Below, piece by piece: positions 661 to 34,790 of a stretch of DNA of 39,115 bases. Location: IMG/VR virus record IMGVR_UViG_3300020592_000107, positions 1 to 39,115 of that record; one strand, given 5' to 3'. A program made the position numbers and the translations under genes. The notes beneath the pieces are model-generated. The model was not told where the DNA came from. It made no database searches and saw only the letters and a program-made list of their open reading frames with translations. Source of the DNA: a virus. Its lineage: Duplodnaviria; Caudoviricetes. Within the stretch, counting starts at the first letter, position 1. Each line of letters starts with the position of its first letter.

Positions 661-918
661 GCTCGGGCAACGCGCTCTTCTCGTTCTGGTCAACAGATCT
701 CGGCCTCAACCATCTCCTGCCGTGAGGTCGACCCCGCGGGGATGTCGGTCGTTCGGTTGCCTCGCTCCCGGATTTGACCTCGACGACATGTTCCTGATGA
801 GAGCGAGACGCCCCTCTCACGGGTTTCTGGTCACCAATGTGGTCACTGGACGCCAGATCGCGGCGCCGACGGAGCGAGGAGGGAGCCGGAATTCCTAGAG
901 AACTCCAGCGATTCGTTG

Positions 919-966
919 CTGGGGTGCCTGGACTCGAACCAAGAACAACTGAACCAGAATCAGCCG
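919..966 (-). other. Prophage att core: displaced 3' half of tRNA-Gln(CTG)
   Basis: The minus strand reads CGGCTGATTCTGGTTCAGTTGTTCTTGGTTCGAGTCCAGGCACCCCAG: anticodon arm (CTG), T-arm and 3' acceptor strand. No D-arm or 5' acceptor strand lies upstream. Confidence 0.85.
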
Positions 967-20362: not shown

Positions 20363-20583
20363 CAGCGACGCACCGGCAGCAACTCAGCGCGGAAGCGGAA
20401 CACCCGCTTCCACTGCCCACCCTGAACCTCGAACGCCTCCTGGGTGAGCTCCGGCACCACGAAACCGCGCAGACCCTCATCGCCCTCGACCACGCCACGC
20501 AGATGCTCGACCGCGGCCTGCAGCGCTTCCTCCAGATCCTCAGCGGTGAAGGCGAACGAAATGATCTCCGGCTTGATCGTCAT
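20362..20583 (-). CDS. Hypothetical protein (first gene after the predicted cos)
   Basis: GGGAG RBS; stop coupled to the terS start. Confidence 0.55.
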   Translation of the reverse strand: MTIKPEIISFAFTAEDLEEALQAAVEHLRGVVEGDEGLRGFVVPELTQEAFEVQGGQWKRVFRFRAELLPVRR

Positions 20584-20741
20584 GATCGTCACTCCCGTTT
20601 CGGGATCGCAGGACCCGTTCCGGGTCACCTGCTACAACACGACTCCGACCAGGGCTCAGCGAACCCTCAGACCCGTACAGAGGAATTCCCACAGCACCTC
20701 CCCGCCCTTGAATTCGTGGGGGGAGGGGGTGGTGGGTGGGG

Positions 20742-21053
20742 TCATCGGAACGCTGGGTGCTGTTCAGGTGGTCGTGTAGGGCTGGGCTTGGTGTGTGTGG
20801 CTTGGGTGCGGGCGGTGGCGGCTTGTTGTTGGGTTTCTCGGTTGTGGTGCCAGTGGCAGAGTGTGCGGACCATGTCGACGGTGGTGTGTTCCCCTGGTTG
20901 CCATTGACCGAGGTGGGCTGCTTCGAGGTTCGTGGTTTCGGGGCAGCGTTGCCCGTTCTGCATCACGGCGGTGCAGCGGTGTCCGTCGCGGTCGAGGGCT
21001 TGCTCTCGGACGCGAGTGGGGACGTGGTTGGGGCGGTTGTTCTGCCATGCCAT
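20742..21053 (-). CDS. Packaging-associated HNH endonuclease
   Basis: RDGHRC...C...EAAH...LCHWHHNRET; located upstream of terS. Confidence 0.8.
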   Translation of the reverse strand: MAWQNNRPNHVPTRVREQALDRDGHRCTAVMQNGQRCPETTNLEAAHLGQWQPGEHTTVDMVRTLCHWHHNRETQQQAATARTQATHTKPSPTRPPEQHPAFR

Positions 21054-21132
21054 CAGGTGCCCCCGGGTGTGCTTCGTTCGGCGGGTCGGTCATCGGCAGG
21101 GTCAGCGTTGACGTGCAAGCCGTTCCGCAACA

Positions 21133-21321
21133 TCAGGTCAGGGCGAGCAGCAGATCATCTGCTAGCCGTTCCGTGAGGAATCGTTGGTCGCGCCAGTCGG
21201 TCACGAGATCACGGGCGAGCTGCATGCGATACCGGAGACGGTCGCGTTCACGGACGAGTTCACCGATTTTGTCGAGCATCAACGCCTCGCGCCGTTGCAC
21301 GTCAACCACAGTCGAACGCAT
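21133..21321 (-). CDS. Hypothetical coiled-coil protein
   Basis: Short helical ORF in the operon direction. Confidence 0.45.
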   Translation of the reverse strand: MRSTVVDVQRREALMLDKIGELVRERDRLRYRMQLARDLVTDWRDQRFLTERLADDLLLALT

Positions 21322-21534
21322 CCCTGTCGAGCACCGCGTGTTGGTCCGCGGCGCGGAGTACTTCGAGCACGTCGGTGGTGGGGTCGCGCAGGTCCGGGGA
21401 CCAGTCGCAGCGGGTGGAACCGTCGAAGGCGCACATGTTGACCTCGCTTCGCCGTTAGGCAGTGGGAGGGATGGTGGGGTCAGAAAAGTGCCTATTAGCG
21501 CGGTTATGTGACGTAAGAGCCAGAATGATGGCTG

Positions 21535-22260
21535 TTACTTGTCGAACGTCGTGCGATCGGCATCGTTGTTCGTGTGGAATCTGTTCCGAGCTTCAATGGC
21601 CGCTTCTTCGGCGTCCTCAATGCGCGAGAAGACCTTCCGCAAGACAGCCTCTCCGTTATGCCAAACCTGAGCTACCCAACCGCCACCACGGCTAGGACTA
21701 ACCCCACGTATGCCAGTCTGGCTATCGGATCGCGCCCCGGAGTGGTTTTCCACGTTCTGCTTCGGAGTAGCAAGGCGAAGATGGTCGATGCGCACGCATT
21801 TACGGTTGTGGCAGATGTGGTCGATGTGAAGGCCGTCCGGAATAGGACCTTTCAGCATCCGCCAGACGGTTCGGTGAGCGGTGACTGCCTTGTCATGGAT
21901 GCTGAGCATGCCGTATCCAGTGGGCGCTATCGCGCCGGTCCACTCCCAACAGGAGCCAGACTTGTCGACCTTCGCCCAGAAGCGATCAGACACTTGCTCA
22001 TCTACGCGGTGTGAGGGGCACTTATCGAAGGGTGCAGTCCGCACTCGAGTGCGGCAACCATCTACGGCGCATAATGGGTAGCGCTCGGCCACTGATTCAC
22101 GCTTCCGAGCAAGGTACCTGTCTCGATTCTCGAGATAGTGCGCGCGCTTGTAACACTCATTGGAGCAGTAGCGACGCGGGTTTCCCGGCTTGACCGTCCA
22201 CACGAACGCTTGTCCGCACGACACGCAAACTGATTCCTTGATACGCTCCGTGATAGCCAC
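21535..22260 (-). CDS. HNH homing endonuclease with C-terminal AP2-like domain
   Basis: RFWAKVDKSGSCWEWTG, HIDHICHNRKCV..DHL and SQTGIRGVS...WVAQV motifs; visibly lower GC than its neighbours. Confidence 0.85.
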   Translation of the reverse strand: MAITERIKESVCVSCGQAFVWTVKPGNPRRYCSNECYKRAHYLENRDRYLARKRESVAERYPLCAVDGCRTRVRTAPFDKCPSHRVDEQVSDRFWAKVDKSGSCWEWTGAIAPTGYGMLSIHDKAVTAHRTVWRMLKGPIPDGLHIDHICHNRKCVRIDHLRLATPKQNVENHSGARSDSQTGIRGVSPSRGGGWVAQVWHNGEAVLRKVFSRIEDAEEAAIEARNRFHTNNDADRTTFDK

Positions 22261-22330
22261 ATCGCCTCCAACTAGGTGATTGGGTTAGGCCCGGTGAGTG
22301 TTGGTAGCACTCATTCGGGCCGTTCATCTT

Positions 22331-23164
22331 CTACCGGATGGGTCTCGTAAACTGCGGTTTACCGACAAGCAGGTTCGACCTAACAGGCGATCCACAATCG
22401 TCACAACGAAATGCTTCGTAGGCGCGAACATTCGCTCGGGCCGGCTTGTGCTGGCGCGTGAGGCGTACCGAACCACAGTTAGGACAACGCGAAGTCTCGC
22501 TGTCGTCGATCATCACGCCGAGATGTGCGCTTCCCGGCAGCCAGGAGAGTTGTCGCAGCCAGATTTCCTCGGTGACTTCCACGTCGCGAATGTTGTATTC
22601 ACGCATCTCTTCCCACGCGTCAGGGTCGCCTTGCTCGCAGAGATCCCAGAGGTCTTTGCCGTCGTGGTCGATCTTTCCTGCGGTCCCGTGCTCACGCGCC
22701 AGGTACCGGAGCGACCTGTAGGGGCGTGCGAACCGCTGCTTGTTGATCTTGTATAGATCAATCGAGCGGGACGGCATCGGACGCGGCAATCCGAAGTGCT
22801 CGAATTCCTCGTGCATCCAGGGATGATCGGCCTTATCGCCATTGAAGGTCACGATGACATCGGCGGAATTGACCAACTCCCACATGGCCTTGACCATGCG
22901 TTTCGCCCCGCCTGTGCCCTTGCCATTCCTGCCGCGCTCGTCAAAGTAGATTATTTCGTCTGAGCCGTACCATTTCGCGGCGAAGCACATGATCCTGGGC
23001 CGGGACACCATCGTGTCCATGTGTAGGAACTTCGGCGGATACGGGTCCCACCGTCGAACCTTCCACTCTCCGCGCTGACGCTCAACATCGATCGTCAGAA
23101 TCTTGACGTTCTTCGCCGCGTCGGCCAGCCCGCGCGCCTGCTCTATGTCGTCAAGCAGACTCAC
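22331..23164 (-). CDS. DEDD/RNase H-like (YprB/DnaQ-like) 3'-5' exonuclease with C-terminal zinc ribbon
   Basis: TIDVE, VTFNGDKAD, IDL and YNIRDV exonuclease motifs; CPNCG...CDDCG; GTG start VSLLDDI. Confidence 0.8.
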   Translation of the reverse strand: MSLLDDIEQARGLADAAKNVKILTIDVERQRGEWKVRRWDPYPPKFLHMDTMVSRPRIMCFAAKWYGSDEIIYFDERGRNGKGTGGAKRMVKAMWELVNSADVIVTFNGDKADHPWMHEEFEHFGLPRPMPSRSIDLYKINKQRFARPYRSLRYLAREHGTAGKIDHDGKDLWDLCEQGDPDAWEEMREYNIRDVEVTEEIWLRQLSWLPGSAHLGVMIDDSETSRCPNCGSVRLTRQHKPARANVRAYEAFRCDDCGSPVRSNLLVGKPQFTRPIR

Positions 23165-23360
23165 GGTAAGCCTTGATCGTGGCGTCGCCGATGCGGATGC
23201 CGTTCTTTCGCAGCACCCTCGCCACAGTGTCGAGCGAGACGCTTCGGTCGCGAACGAACTCGAGTACTGCGTCGCGTTCCTGGTCGGATGCTGTCTCCAA
23301 CCATTTCTCGAGAGTCGGCGGTTGCCGTTCGACAGCTGCAATATCGTCGAGCAGTCCCAC
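23151..23360 (-). CDS. Small helical, possibly HTH-like protein
   Basis: GTG start with AAGGGG RBS; SLDTVARVLRKNGIRIGDATIKAYR; overlaps the exonuclease start. Confidence 0.65.
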   Translation of the reverse strand: MGLLDDIAAVERQPPTLEKWLETASDQERDAVLEFVRDRSVSLDTVARVLRKNGIRIGDATIKAYRESA

Positions 23361-23383
23361 GGTTGCCCCTTCTGTCAGGTTCG

Positions 23384-23461
23384 TGGAGATGGGGGCAATC
23401 GAAGCCCCGTCCGCCGTAGTTCCGCGTGCGGTTCTGCTACGTCGATCAGCCTTGCATCCCC
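23384..23461 (-). ncRNA. tmRNA tRNA-like-domain-only RNA (mini-ssrA-like)
   Basis: GGGGATG/CATCTCC-A acceptor stem with G3.U70; stemless D-loop ending TCGAC; short P2-like stem; GAC linker; GGGGC-TTCGATT-GCCCC T-arm. Confidence 0.75.
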
Positions 23462-23604
23462 AGCGGTCGCTGTGCGTCCCCGACCAAAGGCACGTGTTCA
23501 GTGCGCGCTCATGCACGCCTTAAACGAGCGAACCCCGACTTGCGTATCGAGGCCCGCACGAGAGAATCAGCCCACACCGGTACCTGGGCGGACTGATCGG
23601 CACC

Positions 23605-23640
23605 AAAGAAAATCCCCACCAATCCCGGAGACGGTGGGGA
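23605..23640 (-). terminator. Intrinsic terminator in the leader of the late region
   Basis: TCCCCACC...GGTGGGGA followed by TTTTCTTT on the minus strand. Confidence 0.7.
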
Positions 23641-23697
23641 GCAATAGGGTGTACGACACCCATGATCCGGAACAATAATCCGGCCAGTCCAGCTGTA

Positions 23698-23913
23698 CTA
23701 CAACTCCCGCGCTCGGCGTGTCGCATATTTGCGTAAAGTCATCTCCTTTTCAACGCGGAGGAGATCATTGACATTCAACCAAAGGTAGCGGTCAACTCGT
23801 AGCGTCCGGATTTCCAGCTCTGGACGTTGCAGCCATGCGTAGATCGCGGATCTCGATCGCTTGACACGTTTATGTGCCTTCGTAGCGAGAACCCATTCGT
23901 CGAGCACACTCAC
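23698..23913 (-). CDS. Small HTH DNA-binding protein
   Basis: ATKAHKRVKRSRSAIYAW...LWLNVNDL excisionase-like winged-HTH pattern. Confidence 0.6.
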   Translation of the reverse strand: MSVLDEWVLATKAHKRVKRSRSAIYAWLQRPELEIRTLRVDRYLWLNVNDLLRVEKEMTLRKYATRRAREL

Positions 23914-23915
23914 AG

Positions 23916-24167
23916 TTACTCCGTACCGCCCTTCAGGGCTCTGATGCGCTCCTTCGCTCCGCCGCTACCAGCCCACGTCACTGCAGGGGAAGCGTCAGCG
24001 GTTGCGATAACCTCGTCCAACACTGCGTCACGGATCACGGGATAGACCGCGCGAGCATTCGCTCGACAAGCCTCCATGTCCACATCGCCCGGCTCCGGAT
24101 CGCATCCGAACCAGAGCTGAAACAATGCCTTCGCTGCTTGCTCGATCACGTCGTCACGGGCGGTCAT
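23916..24167 (-). CDS. Hypothetical phage protein
   Basis: Coupled ORF with VIEQAAKAL motif. Confidence 0.55.
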   Translation of the reverse strand: MTARDDVIEQAAKALFQLWFGCDPEPGDVDMEACRANARAVYPVIRDAVLDEVIATADASPAVTWAGSGGAKERIRALKGGTE

Positions 24168-24724
24168 CGCTTAGCCCTCTCCGCGTTCTCCGCCTCGATC
24201 AACGCCACCGCGCGACCCCACAACGTTTCATCCATCACAGCCCCGCACTCCTTGTTCGTGCACTTCACCGTCGTGTCCAACAGTTGCCCGTTAGCGAACG
24301 TGGGCGGGTAGTAGCGGAGGGTGAGCATGTCGCAGGCGAAACAGCGGACGTGTTGCACCTTGTGGGGGCGGTCCGAGATCGGCCACCGTGCCATCGCAGT
24401 CTCAACCTCACGGATCAGCAGCTCTGCGAAGTACACCCCGTCGTCATCGTTCGCCGCGTCCGACAGTTCCGGCCACTTGTTCAACTGCTCTAACAGGCGT
24501 TTGATCTCCTCTGCCGCCAACCACGGTGCAGGTAACGGCAACGGGTAGCTATTCGACGACGACACCCGCTCCAGCTCCTCCGCCGCGCTGTTGCGAATGT
24601 GCCCGCACACCCGCCACCACGGAACATGCTTGATCGCGTTGTTCACCGCACGTTCGAGCCGGTTGAACTGGTCCCAGGTCATCAGGCCGACGTAACCGTC
24701 AGCAGGATCAATGTCTGTTCTCAC
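24164..24724 (-). CDS. Hypothetical protein with C4 zinc finger (possible late regulator)
   Basis: CFACD...CTNKECG; GGAGG RBS; last large early gene. Confidence 0.6.
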   Translation of the reverse strand: MRTDIDPADGYVGLMTWDQFNRLERAVNNAIKHVPWWRVCGHIRNSAAEELERVSSSNSYPLPLPAPWLAAEEIKRLLEQLNKWPELSDAANDDDGVYFAELLIREVETAMARWPISDRPHKVQHVRCFACDMLTLRYYPPTFANGQLLDTTVKCTNKECGAVMDETLWGRAVALIEAENAERAKR

Positions 24725-24821
24725 GTACCCTCCAAATAGAAGACGCCCCCACCCGAAGGCAGGGGCGAACGAACGGTGAGCGCTCTAGCGCGCTTCCTCG
24801 ACGCTCGGCGTGTACGGGGCG

Positions 24822-25082
24822 TCAGGCATCACCCAGCTCCTTCTCGATGATCTGCTGCACGTCGGCTTTCCGGTACGGATTTGGTATCGGGTCGTCGTCA
24901 TCCCAGAAATCGCGAGCTAGATTCTCGCATGCCGCCACCCCGCCTTCGTCCCATGCTTCGGCTTTGATCTGCCGGATCACGTCAGAGGCGAGAATCGCGT
25001 CGGCAACATCATCAATGTCGCCGTTGTACTTCCAGTGTCCGAGTGGTTCGATCAGCCGCGCTAGTTCCTCACGAGTCGTCAC
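24822..25082 (-). CDS. Hypothetical phage protein
   Basis: KAEAWDEG...NPYR motif common in actinophage small proteins. Confidence 0.6.
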   Translation of the reverse strand: MTTREELARLIEPLGHWKYNGDIDDVADAILASDVIRQIKAEAWDEGGVAACENLARDFWDDDDPIPNPYRKADVQQIIEKELGDA

Positions 25083-25279
25083 GAGCGGCCTCCTTCACAA
25101 GGTCGAACTGGCGAACCATTGACGAAGTGAGGACAGGCCCGCCAGGCTTCTTCCCGCGTGAGTTAGTCAGGCGCGCCCGCTCGCGGCCGTCCAAGTAGTT
25201 CTTCGATACCTCTTCGACGCCGAATCTGCGCCCGTCCTTCCGCCGCCGCCAGACCTGCCCGACCTTCACCTCAGGCATC
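25069..25279 (-). CDS. Hypothetical protein (VKVGQVWRR motif)
   Basis: Start near MPEVKVGQVW with GGAGGAG RBS. Confidence 0.5.
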
Positions 25280-25522
25280 TGCGTTCTCCTCCGGATCAAT
25301 ACCAATCTTGCGCAGGGCGTTGGCGTATGCCTCGACCGTCTCGTGTGCCAGCGCCGCGGTCAGCTCGGCAGCGTCAGCAACATCGCGAGCCTGCTGCATC
25401 TGACGCACCGCAGCGTCGTACTTCTCGACAGCGAGCCTGTGTCCAGCGCGAAGCACGGACTCCGGCTCGCTCATCCTGAAGTCGAGTCCCTGATGGTGGC
25501 CGTGTTCGATGAAATCAGCCAT
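25271..25522 (-). CDS. Hypothetical phage protein
   Basis: GAGGAG RBS; coupled ORF. Confidence 0.55.
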   Translation of the reverse strand: MADFIEHGHHQGLDFRMSEPESVLRAGHRLAVEKYDAAVRQMQQARDVADAAELTAALAHETVEAYANALRKIGIDPEENADA

Positions 25523-32835: not shown

Positions 32836-33713
32836 TAGATCTGGATGTCTCCGCTCTCGTATCGCATCTCGTGCTCGATGACTGCCCACGCGGGCGGATC
32901 AAGCACAACAACCCCAGGGTCGTATCCCGGCCACACACCGGACTCGGTGCACTGTCTGAAAATGCGTCGCGCCTCCGCCGCTTTCGTGCGACCCATCCGC
33001 ACCCACAACTCCGGAAGCTCGAACACCGCCACTTCGTACGGGCCGGACTTCTCCACAGCGATGAAGATGAAACGGTCGATCGGTCTGCCCACGCCAGCCT
33101 CGTGCACGTCCCTGTAGTGGGCTTCCTGCACGTCGTACCCGTACCGTTTCACCGACGACTCGAGCCCCGTCTTCGTGGCGTCCTCAGTGGTCTTCAGGTC
33201 GACCGCGAAGACGCCGTTTCGGGTGGCGTCAGAAAGGGCGTCGAAGCGGGCCCGGCACGGCACATCGTCGACGGTCGCGAAAACGGACACTTCACGATGC
33301 ACCGCAACCTCAAGGTAGGGGCGTGCCGTCTCGTGGGCGAGCACAGCCTCAGCCATTGCGTCCACGGTGGCGGCGTCGTTCGGGCTCACAACGGTCAGGC
33401 CGGCGGCTCGCTGCTCGGCTTCCCAAGCGAGCGTCGCCGCCTTCGTTGACACATTCCCGCTCGGTGTCAGGTGCTCGTCAGGGTAGGTGATGACGTTCGC
33501 ACCGACACCGAGGACCTTCGCATGCACTGCATGGCCGATGTCGAACGTGCGGGATGTTTTCGGGTGCGCCTTCGCCCACTGGAACTTCCTCGGAGACCCC
33601 GCGTACTCGGGCAGCAACTGCCGCGCACCCGTGGATGAAAGCTCGGGGCGGGCGTGATACTCCCACTCGGGAAGTCCCGCAACGATCCCGCTCGGAGGCG
33701 CTACCGGCTTCAT
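32835..33713 (-). CDS. RecE/ExoVIII-like PD-(D/E)XK exonuclease
   Basis: EYHA...LSSTGAR, GHAVH, CRARFD...VDLKTT and YDVQEAHY motifs. Confidence 0.88.
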   Translation of the reverse strand: MKPVAPPSGIVAGLPEWEYHARPELSSTGARQLLPEYAGSPRKFQWAKAHPKTSRTFDIGHAVHAKVLGVGANVITYPDEHLTPSGNVSTKAATLAWEAEQRAAGLTVVSPNDAATVDAMAEAVLAHETARPYLEVAVHREVSVFATVDDVPCRARFDALSDATRNGVFAVDLKTTEDATKTGLESSVKRYGYDVQEAHYRDVHEAGVGRPIDRFIFIAVEKSGPYEVAVFELPELWVRMGRTKAAEARRIFRQCTESGVWPGYDPGVVVLDPPAWAVIEHEMRYESGDIQI

Positions 33714-34670: not shown

Positions 34671-34708
34671 AACAGCCCCCTTTCGGGCATGAGTCAGCCA
34701 TGAGTGAG

Positions 34709-34790
34709 TGCCGGTCCCGGGACTCGAACCCGGACGCCTGAGGGGCGGCGCATTTTGAGTGCGCTGCGTCTGCCATTCCGCCAGACCGGC
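34709..34790 (-). tRNA. tRNA-Leu(CAA), phage-encoded
   Basis: GCCGGTC/GACCGGC-A acceptor; TGGCGGAATGGCAGACGC D-arm; GCGCA-CTCAAAA-TGCGC anticodon arm; long variable arm; CCGGG-TTCGAGT-CCCGG T-arm. Confidence 0.93.

What the first reader, a model, noticed from the sequence alone, without database searches (positions are those of the whole stretch)
23384..23461. Phage-encoded mini-tmRNA: tRNA-like domain only, no mRNA domain
Seen: the minus strand reads GGGGATG CAAGGCTGATCGAC GTAG CAGAACCGCACGCGGAA CTAC GGCG GAC GGGGC TTCGATT GCCCC CATCTCC A. It has a 7-bp acceptor stem with the G3.U70 wobble and A discriminator, a stemless D-loop ending TCGAC, a short stem replacing the anticodon arm, a GAC linker and a T-arm with a compensatory C53-G61 swap. 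Established: G3.U70/A73 is the AlaRS identity element, and GGGGNTG...TCGAC / GAC...T-arm...CTCCA is the layout of the tmRNA tRNA-like domain bound by SmpB. The pseudoknots and tag ORF are entirely absent here. Inference: it may be a SmpB/EF-Tu decoy that blocks or rewires host trans-translation, or a decoy for tRNA-targeting defences. From memory, a similarly reduced tmRNA was noted in mycobacteriophage DS6A (needs verifying). Standard annotation would probably miss this one.
Basis: partly seen in the sequence, partly recalled or inferred. Interest (0 to 1): 0.9.

Follow-up and report, generated by a model that had tools for sequence, protein, structure and literature searches.

The report
Phage mini-tmRNA without a tag message
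This prophage carries a 78-base gene for only the tRNA-like end of the bacterial ribosome-rescue RNA (tmRNA), a form published from one mycobacteriophage but common and conserved in phages, which likely competes with the host's rescue RNA so that stalled proteins are not tagged for destruction.

Summary
Observation confirmed. Window 23384-23461(-) hits Rfam tmRNA (42.4 bits, E 1e-14, under the cut-off of 47) with 318 model positions replaced by 24 nt; ARAGORN misses it. It lies mid-genome in a complete temperate prophage of Microbacterium-phage type, away from the att site. It is a new member of the published DS6A 'TLD-only' kind and shares DS6A's apical hairpin. Pattern scans gave about 280 distinct relatives with strong covariation; the 2025 tmRNA database lists 9 of this form. 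With the acceptor left free, G3.U70/A73 held in 45/45 and 92/93 sequences; with the SmpB joint left free, U17/G19/A334 equivalents held in 85, 86 and 88 of 92. Both alanine charging and SmpB binding therefore look selected, which a plain sponge would not need. Best mechanism (inferred, 0.55): a charged, SmpB-bound competitor that takes stalled chains without tagging them. This copy is atypical: the only C53-G61 pair among 234, a weak arm, and a predicted competing fold. No expression evidence was obtained. The scan's earlier notes list this kind on at least 7 other genomes.

The parts
23384..23461 (-). mini-tmRNA gene (tRNA-like domain only), 78 nt to the discriminator A73
   Evidence: Rfam RF00023 42.4 bits; family model R1 59.4 bits
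23455..23461 (-). acceptor stem 5' strand; G3 at 23459
   Evidence: sequence; covariation at pairs 4-6
23442..23454 (-). stemless D-loop with GG and U17-C18-G19-A20 (SmpB-contact side); 4 nt between GG and UCGAC, longer than the usual 2
   Evidence: contact residues U17, G19, A334 named in PMC8363625
23412..23441 (-). capped helix-2 arm replacing the whole mRNA-like domain: stem, A-rich internal loop, apical hairpin
23422..23431 (-). apical 3-bp hairpin with CACG tetraloop, identical to that of DS6A
   Evidence: a related strain changes a G-C pair to U-A here
23409..23411 (-). GAC linker (A334 equivalent at 23410)
23392..23408 (-). T-arm; C53 (23404) pairs with G61 (23396), the reverse of the usual pair
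   Evidence: 1 of 234 sequences
23384..23391 (-). acceptor 3' strand with U70 (23387) and discriminator A73 (23384)
23381..23383 (-). CGA at the CCA position; CCA would have to be added after trimming
   Evidence: CCA encoded in only 44 of 126 representatives
23462..23667 (-). non-coding leader with a terminator-like hairpin (23632-23612); related strains keep leader and RNA but diverge beyond 23667; probably holds the promoter (inferred, none detected)
23151..23360 (-). downstream small ORF (weak phrog_3979), starting 24 nt after A73; followed by a 3'-5' exonuclease-like gene and the packaging/structural genes (context, not part of the RNA)

Best explanation
This is a phage gene for a tmRNA cut down to its tRNA-like domain, which is likely processed, charged with alanine and bound by the host's SmpB, and would then compete with the host's full tmRNA at stalled ribosomes without being able to add the degradation tag. 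Steps: (1) shown: gene anatomy, family membership and selection on both the alanine marks and the SmpB-side residues; (2) inferred: transcription with the late genes that follow it, RNase P-type 5' cut, 3' trimming and CCA addition; (3) inferred from established tmRNA biochemistry: AlaRS charges it through G3.U70/A73, EF-Tu delivers it with SmpB to an empty A site, and the nascent chain is transferred to its alanine; (4) inferred: with no template there is no SsrA tag, so host tagging and proteolysis fall, both because SmpB is tied up and because chains are diverted; (5) open: whether the ribosome is then freed (drop-off and hydrolysis), gets more alanines, or stays blocked.
For: Acceptor-free scans: G1-C72, G2-C71, G3.U70 and A73 in 45 of 45 distinct sequences while pairs 4-6 swap freely; U70 and A73 in 92 of 93 in a second scan, the exception being a one-base register shift that also reads G3.U70/A73. 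Joint-free scan: U17 85, G19 86, A334 88 of 92 placed sequences, first arm pair C-G 78 / U-A 8. Covariation in 126 representatives: T 49:65 125/126 vs shuffled mean 49.5, arm pair 1 123/126 vs 54.4. No carrier virus encodes SmpB (0 of 50) and 1 of 50 has a full tmRNA, while 5 of 5 actinobacterial genomes that carry the mini form also have a full tmRNA, so it must use host SmpB beside the host RNA. Papers (passages): a TLD-only RNA with SmpB makes polyalanine on ribosomes without template (Shimizu and Ueda 2006 as cited in PMC2481249, and PMC3929946); the DS6A-type form inhibits endogenous tmRNA in E. coli (Mao 2009 as cited in PMC4131195 and PMC11915505).
Against: No transcript, charging or binding was shown; the one RNA run has contigs on both sides of the gene but none over it, which is uninformative. 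Inhibition is reported to occur whether or not the RNA is chargeable, so charging may only protect the RNA. The joint is less strict than the alanine marks: canonical UCGAC..GGAC in only 54 of 92, and DS6A itself has CAC. True rescue is doubtful: a phage plating assay needs tmRNA to resume on its template and terminate (passage), and only 2 of 50 carriers encode PTH2. This copy may work poorly: arm energy rank 164 of 175 unconstrained, and a fold pairing the D-loop with the T-arm is predicted 7.5 kcal/mol below the tRNA-like fold, rank 3 of 234, family median 1.0 (nearest-neighbour model only; 34 of 234 also have T-stem probability under 0.1). Shuffle controls ignore relatedness.
Confidence: 0.55

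Rival explanations
1. Plain SmpB sponge: the RNA only ties up SmpB (and perhaps EF-Tu); the alanine marks are kept because charging protects the RNA from decay, not because it enters ribosomes.
For: Non-chargeable version reported to inhibit tmRNA too (passage); SmpB-side residues kept in over 90%; no phage SmpB.
Against: G3.U70/A73 are more strictly kept than the joint (vs 105); TLD plus SmpB is competent in peptidyl transfer in vitro, so a charged copy would be hard to keep out of stalled ribosomes.
Confidence: 0.2
2. Decoy against a host defence enzyme or toxin that recognises tmRNA or the tRNA-Ala acceptor end; the RNA soaks up the enzyme and spares the host's RNAs.
For: Would also explain strict acceptor identity; patchy presence (related phages with the same downstream gene lack it) is typical of counter-defence genes; CoCoNuT systems are predicted, not shown, to target tmRNA (passages).
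Against: No defence system known from my searches to cleave tmRNA (2 versions of one predictive paper); no counter-defence partner recurs beside the RNA in 28 bacterial loci scanned; conserved arm geometry and length are not obviously needed.
Confidence: 0.13
3. The family is functional but this copy is decaying, or serves only as a processing site that cuts and stabilises the late transcript.
For: Unique C53-G61, two mismatches in the family register of the arm, predicted competing fold; it sits 24 nt before a gene at the head of the late cluster.
Against: All 12 acceptor and T-stem pairs and the whole joint are intact; C53-G61 needs two matching changes; a related strain has five substitutions and one insertion inside the gene, all in the internal loop and apical hairpin, and keeps the hairpin; processing needs neither G3.U70 nor the joint.
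Confidence: 0.09
4. Remnant of a host tmRNA gene left by integration or excision.
For: tmRNA genes are common integration sites (abstract listing).
Against: Both ends are present, 14 kb from the integrase; the visible att remnant is a tRNA-Gln 3' half near 917-965 (read by eye); five host tmRNAs lack the apical hairpin and score 37 bits or less on the family model; the arm covaries across the family.
Confidence: 0.02

Closest known systems
TLD-only tmRNA of Mycobacterium phage DS6A (tmRNA Website tmID 11587, Phage__Mycobacterium.9; 'Standard, no CDS' form; JN698994.1 28478-28560)
   Same: Same order and size, G3.U70/A73, stemless D-loop, capped arm with the identical apical hairpin, CCA not encoded; 58 of 81 aligned columns identical; both score on one model (69.5 and 59.4 bits).
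   Different: Here the linker is canonical GAC (DS6A has CAC), the T-stem closes with C53-G61 (DS6A G-C), the lower arm is weaker and belongs to a subgroup that can pair in two registers; host group differs (Microbacterium-type temperate phage).
Standard tmRNA (SsrA, Rfam RF00023)
   Same: tRNA-like domain with alanine identity and SmpB-side residues.
   Different: No pseudoknots, resume codon, tag ORF or stop codon: 318 model positions replaced by 24 nt; under the gathering score.
CDS-less organellar tmRNAs (jakobid/oomycete mitochondria; ~65-nt Mallomonadaceae plastid forms, PMC11915505 passage)
   Same: tRNA-like domain without a tag frame.
   Different: Those are the organelle's own tmRNA, and 72 of the 81 no-CDS entries in the database are permuted; this one is in standard order and sits beside an intact host system.
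Engineered TLD fragment with SmpB (Shimizu and Ueda 2006, as cited in PMC2481249 and PMC3929946)
   Same: Same minimal anatomy; shows what such an RNA can do on ribosomes.
   Different: Artificial, in vitro, E. coli system; says nothing on the natural role.

Membership tests
DS6A-type TLD-only tmRNA ('Standard, no CDS') | Both ends of the tRNA-like domain in standard order in one short gene | tested here: met
   model positions 1-374 matched over 81 nt
DS6A-type TLD-only tmRNA ('Standard, no CDS') | No tag frame or pseudoknots; helix 2 capped by a short hairpin | tested here: met
   29-nt arm between CGAC and GAC; apical hairpin as in DS6A
DS6A-type TLD-only tmRNA ('Standard, no CDS') | Alanine identity G3.U70 and A73 | tested here: met
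   family invariance
DS6A-type TLD-only tmRNA ('Standard, no CDS') | Scores with the family above host tmRNA ends and tRNAs on an independent model | tested here: met
   R1 built without this sequence: window 59.4, DS6A 69.5, host tmRNA ends 28.8-37.3 bits
DS6A-type TLD-only tmRNA ('Standard, no CDS') | Expressed, charged, binds SmpB, inhibits host tmRNA | not testable with these tools
   only contigs available; RNA run has no contig over the gene
Standard tmRNA (RF00023) | mRNA-like domain with tag ORF and pseudoknots | tested here: not met
Standard tmRNA (RF00023) | Rfam gathering score 47 | tested here: not met
   42.4 bits
Standard tmRNA (RF00023) | SmpB-side residues U17, G19, A334 | tested here: met
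   sequence nt 17, 19, 52; residues named in PMC8363625 passage
Permuted (two-piece) tmRNA (RF04321) | 3' half upstream of the 5' half | tested here: not met
   22.2 bits, E 0.11; the supposed second half lies in the start of the next ORF
tRNA-Ala | D-stem and anticodon arm with an alanine anticodon | tested here: not met
   ARAGORN no call; apical loops vary freely: CACG 21, CAUG 14, GCAA 6, GAAA 5 and many others among 126

The most novel reading that the evidence does not exclude
Phages across several bacterial phyla carry a dedicated, template-free arm of ribosome quality control: an alanylated 78-80-nt RNA that hijacks host SmpB to clear or alanine-tail stalled chains without the SsrA tag, a third outcome for non-stop ribosomes beside tagging and release-factor rescue; a few small-genome bacteria may use the same form as a cellular gene.
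Probability: 0.3. Interest if true: 0.8.

Novelty: new member of a known kind. Interest (0 to 1): 0.5.

Why it matters
The form was treated as a curiosity (9 'Standard, no CDS' entries among 97,179 in the 2025 database), yet limited scans here gave about 280 distinct sequences under clear selection, unannotated or called a hypothetical protein in cultured Streptomyces phages (GiJojo, LuckySocke, Alone3, pSt2308, BRock). These give a ready laboratory system to ask why phages would turn down trans-translation and what happens to a ribosome after peptidyl transfer to a tmRNA with no message. This particular copy adds little beyond a natural T-stem variant.

Tried and rejected
Expression: the only RNA run (X10) has contigs at 23030-23287 and 23472-23642 but none over the gene; contigs cannot show small RNAs, so no conclusion. 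Promoter scan: 0 sigma-70-like sites in 20500-25500. Leader folding z -1.8 and -2.2, not taken as a second RNA. Single-sequence folding does not give the tRNA-like fold; covariation was used instead. Other C53-G61 copies: 120 metagenome hits (13 of 64 parts scanned) and 5 viral hits to this copy's D-loop were all chance matches. Second model hit at 33068-33150(-), 23.3 bits, lacks T-arm and acceptor and lies inside the exonuclease ORF: rejected. The 121-aa ORF 23151-23516 over the RNA: only its last part matches a family, real start taken as 23360. Pseudomonas phage SM1 hit is a full permuted tmRNA, not a relative. Peptidyl-tRNA hydrolase PTH2 as a partner: 2 of 50. Link to temperate lifestyle: tyrosine integrase in 8 of 50, serine integrases not tested. 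Spread in cells: family model found nothing in 100 relatives of G006 (only 46 candidates scored per genome) and no further short form in 40 relatives of G002. Mao et al. 2009 is not held; the supplement of PMC11915505 gave no hit for 'no CDS', 'noCDS', 'Phage', so I could not see which 9 sequences the database holds and some of my relatives may be among them. Rows dropped: 5 of 200 and 5 of 239 with fewer than 11 of 12 acceptor and T-stem pairs; 1 of 94 with no T-stem; L299 passed the filter but may be the tail of a full tmRNA.

Full report
Observation. Rfam's tmRNA model matches end to end at 42.4 bits, E 9.8e-15, with 318 internal positions replaced by 24 nt; it is one of only two RNA hits in the window, the other being tRNA-Leu(CAA) at 34708-34790. 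ARAGORN does not call it.

Setting. The window is a complete virus record classed as provirus. PHROG matches give a siphovirus-type temperate layout: integrase at the right end, repressor/antirepressor, recombination and replication genes, then terminase, portal, capsid and tail genes, nearly all on the minus strand. The terminase is 77% identical to that of Microbacterium phage vB_MoxS-R1. The RNA gene lies in a non-coding gap after a terminator-like hairpin (23632-23612) and 24 nt before a small ORF, an exonuclease-like gene and the packaging genes, so late expression is inferred, not shown. Eight viral loci with the same downstream exonuclease have no such RNA nearby (0 of 8; whole records 0 of 5), so it is accessory. 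A tRNA-Gln 3' half near 917-965 (read by eye; no tool call found it) looks like the att remnant, far from this gene.

It is a family. Together with later scans about 283 distinct sequences were held. Of 195 that passed at the first count, 130 are 78-80 nt and 16 are 62-65 nt. In 126 representatives, positions defined only by flanking motifs pair far above partner shuffles: T 49:65 125/126 (shuffled mean 49.5, max 68), T 50:64 126/126 (52.3), arm pairs 1-5 123, 116, 115, 112, 108 (49-57) (acceptor and T-stem counts follow a filter that dropped 5 of 200; shuffles ignore kinship). RNAalifold on 58 sequences recovers acceptor, arm and T-stem with double changes at 13 of 17 pairs. Cultured Streptomyces phages carry it too: GiJojo scores 57.4 bits and is annotated as hypothetical gp44; LuckySocke, Alone3, pSt2308 and BRock match with no annotation. 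Among 28 bacterial loci, 8 have clear phage genes next to it and 4 look cellular.

It is the DS6A kind. Passages of PMC4131195 list DS6A as 'TLD only' and say a similar molecule, chargeable or not, strongly inhibits tmRNA, perhaps by titrating SmpB; PMC11915505 (passages and part 1 of its Results section) repeats this and counts 9 'Standard, no CDS' sequences among 97,179. The DS6A gene has the same plan and the same apical hairpin; 58 of 81 columns are identical. A model built from 58 relatives, without either sequence, scores DS6A 69.5 and this gene 59.4 bits, against 37.3 or less for host tmRNA ends. Nine literature searches showed no survey of this family; subscription papers, Mao 2009 included, were not seen.

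What is under selection. Because my first patterns imposed the features of interest, I ran scans that left each free. Acceptor free: G1-C72, G2-C71, G3.U70, A73 in 45 of 45 distinct sequences while pairs 4-6 swap; U70 and A73 in 92 of 93 in a second, overlapping scan, the exception being a register shift. SmpB joint free: the canonical UCGAC..GGAC in 54 of 92, but U17 85, G19 86 and A334 88 of 92, and the first arm pair changes C-G to U-A in 8 (my script misplaces a few, so these are near lower bounds). U17, G19 and A334 are the SmpB contacts named in PMC8363625 (passage). So alanine identity is the strictest feature and the SmpB face is kept more loosely. None of 50 long carrier records encodes SmpB, one has a full tmRNA, two have PTH2; 5 of 5 actinobacterial genomes with the mini form also have a full tmRNA.

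Mechanism. Established: G3.U70 directs alanylation and EF-Tu delivery; a TLD-only RNA with SmpB supports template-free polyalanine synthesis (Shimizu and Ueda 2006 as cited). Inference: the phage RNA is charged, takes host SmpB, enters stalled ribosomes, accepts the chain and cannot tag it, so trans-translation is damped and stalled products escape the SsrA route (0.55). Against real rescue: a phage plating assay is said to need template read-through and termination, and no hydrolase partner recurs. A plain sponge (0.2) fits the cited inhibition by a non-chargeable form but not easily the invariant alanine marks; a defence decoy (0.13) fits the marks and the patchy spread but rests on a prediction (CoCoNuT passages).

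This copy. It has a fully canonical joint and all 12 acceptor and T-stem pairs, but it is atypical. C53-G61 occurs in 1 of 234 (G-C 228, U-A 4, A-U 1) and was not found again. Its arm ranks 164 of 175 in stability, and a fold that pairs the D-loop with the T-arm, using the swapped G61, is predicted 7.5 kcal/mol below the tRNA-like fold (rank 3 of 234, median 1.0). A related strain in two runs differs at five positions plus one insertion inside the gene, all in the internal loop and apical hairpin, and keeps the hairpin with a G-C to U-A change; a third run has a contig over the whole gene with no listed change in it. That argues for continued constraint, but weaker activity cannot be excluded.

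Expression was not shown. Earlier notes of this scan describe the same kind on at least 7 other genomes; none concerns this genome. They gave the DS6A coordinates and the lead to test joint variation; I counted them as leads only.

Verdict. Real RNA gene; new member of a known but under-counted kind; mechanism inferred. Interest 0.5.

Noticed in passing
window ~917-965 (-): 3' half of a tRNA-Gln(CUG)-like gene, likely the att remnant of this prophage (read by eye); an AbiEi-like ORF (1-612, weak Pfam hit) lies beyond it.
   Followed up: partly
window 34708-34790 (-): Intact tRNA-Leu(CAA) among the early genes.
   Followed up: no
L286 3324-3396 (+) (G004): 73-nt mini form about 570 nt from smpB among housekeeping genes of a Saccharibacteria-labelled MAG; no full-length tmRNA was found in this 0.5-Mb incomplete genome. 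Could be a cellular tag-less tmRNA.
   Followed up: partly
L282, L289, L295 (G001-G003): 62-nt form in three Saccharibacteria-labelled MAGs that also have full tmRNA and SmpB; uridine kinase/CYTH and TrmB neighbours in two look cellular; not seen in 40 relatives.
   Followed up: partly
L001 1502-1582 (phage GiJojo): Annotated hypothetical gp44 starts on top of a mini-tmRNA inside a tRNA array; probably a mis-annotation.
   Followed up: yes
L002 1473-1772 (Pseudomonas phage SM1): Unannotated full permuted tmRNA, 118.6 bits.
   Followed up: no
L646, L657, L672, L631, L691: Joint variants in which both sides change together (UAGCC with UAC; UCGUC with CAC).
   Followed up: partly
G010 C30 and C99; G037: One actinobacterial genome has two mini-sized hits besides its full tmRNA; one 124-kb virus has both a mini and a full tmRNA.
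   Followed up: no
window 24021-24057: In run X5 a short contig has 37 matching bases between two copies of the same ~27-nt repeat, which looks like a CRISPR spacer against this phage (tables 7 and 8).
   Followed up: no
L308 2980-3282; L283, L297, L301, L308: Mini form inside large tRNA arrays, once with a PTH2 gene about 700 nt away.
   Followed up: partly
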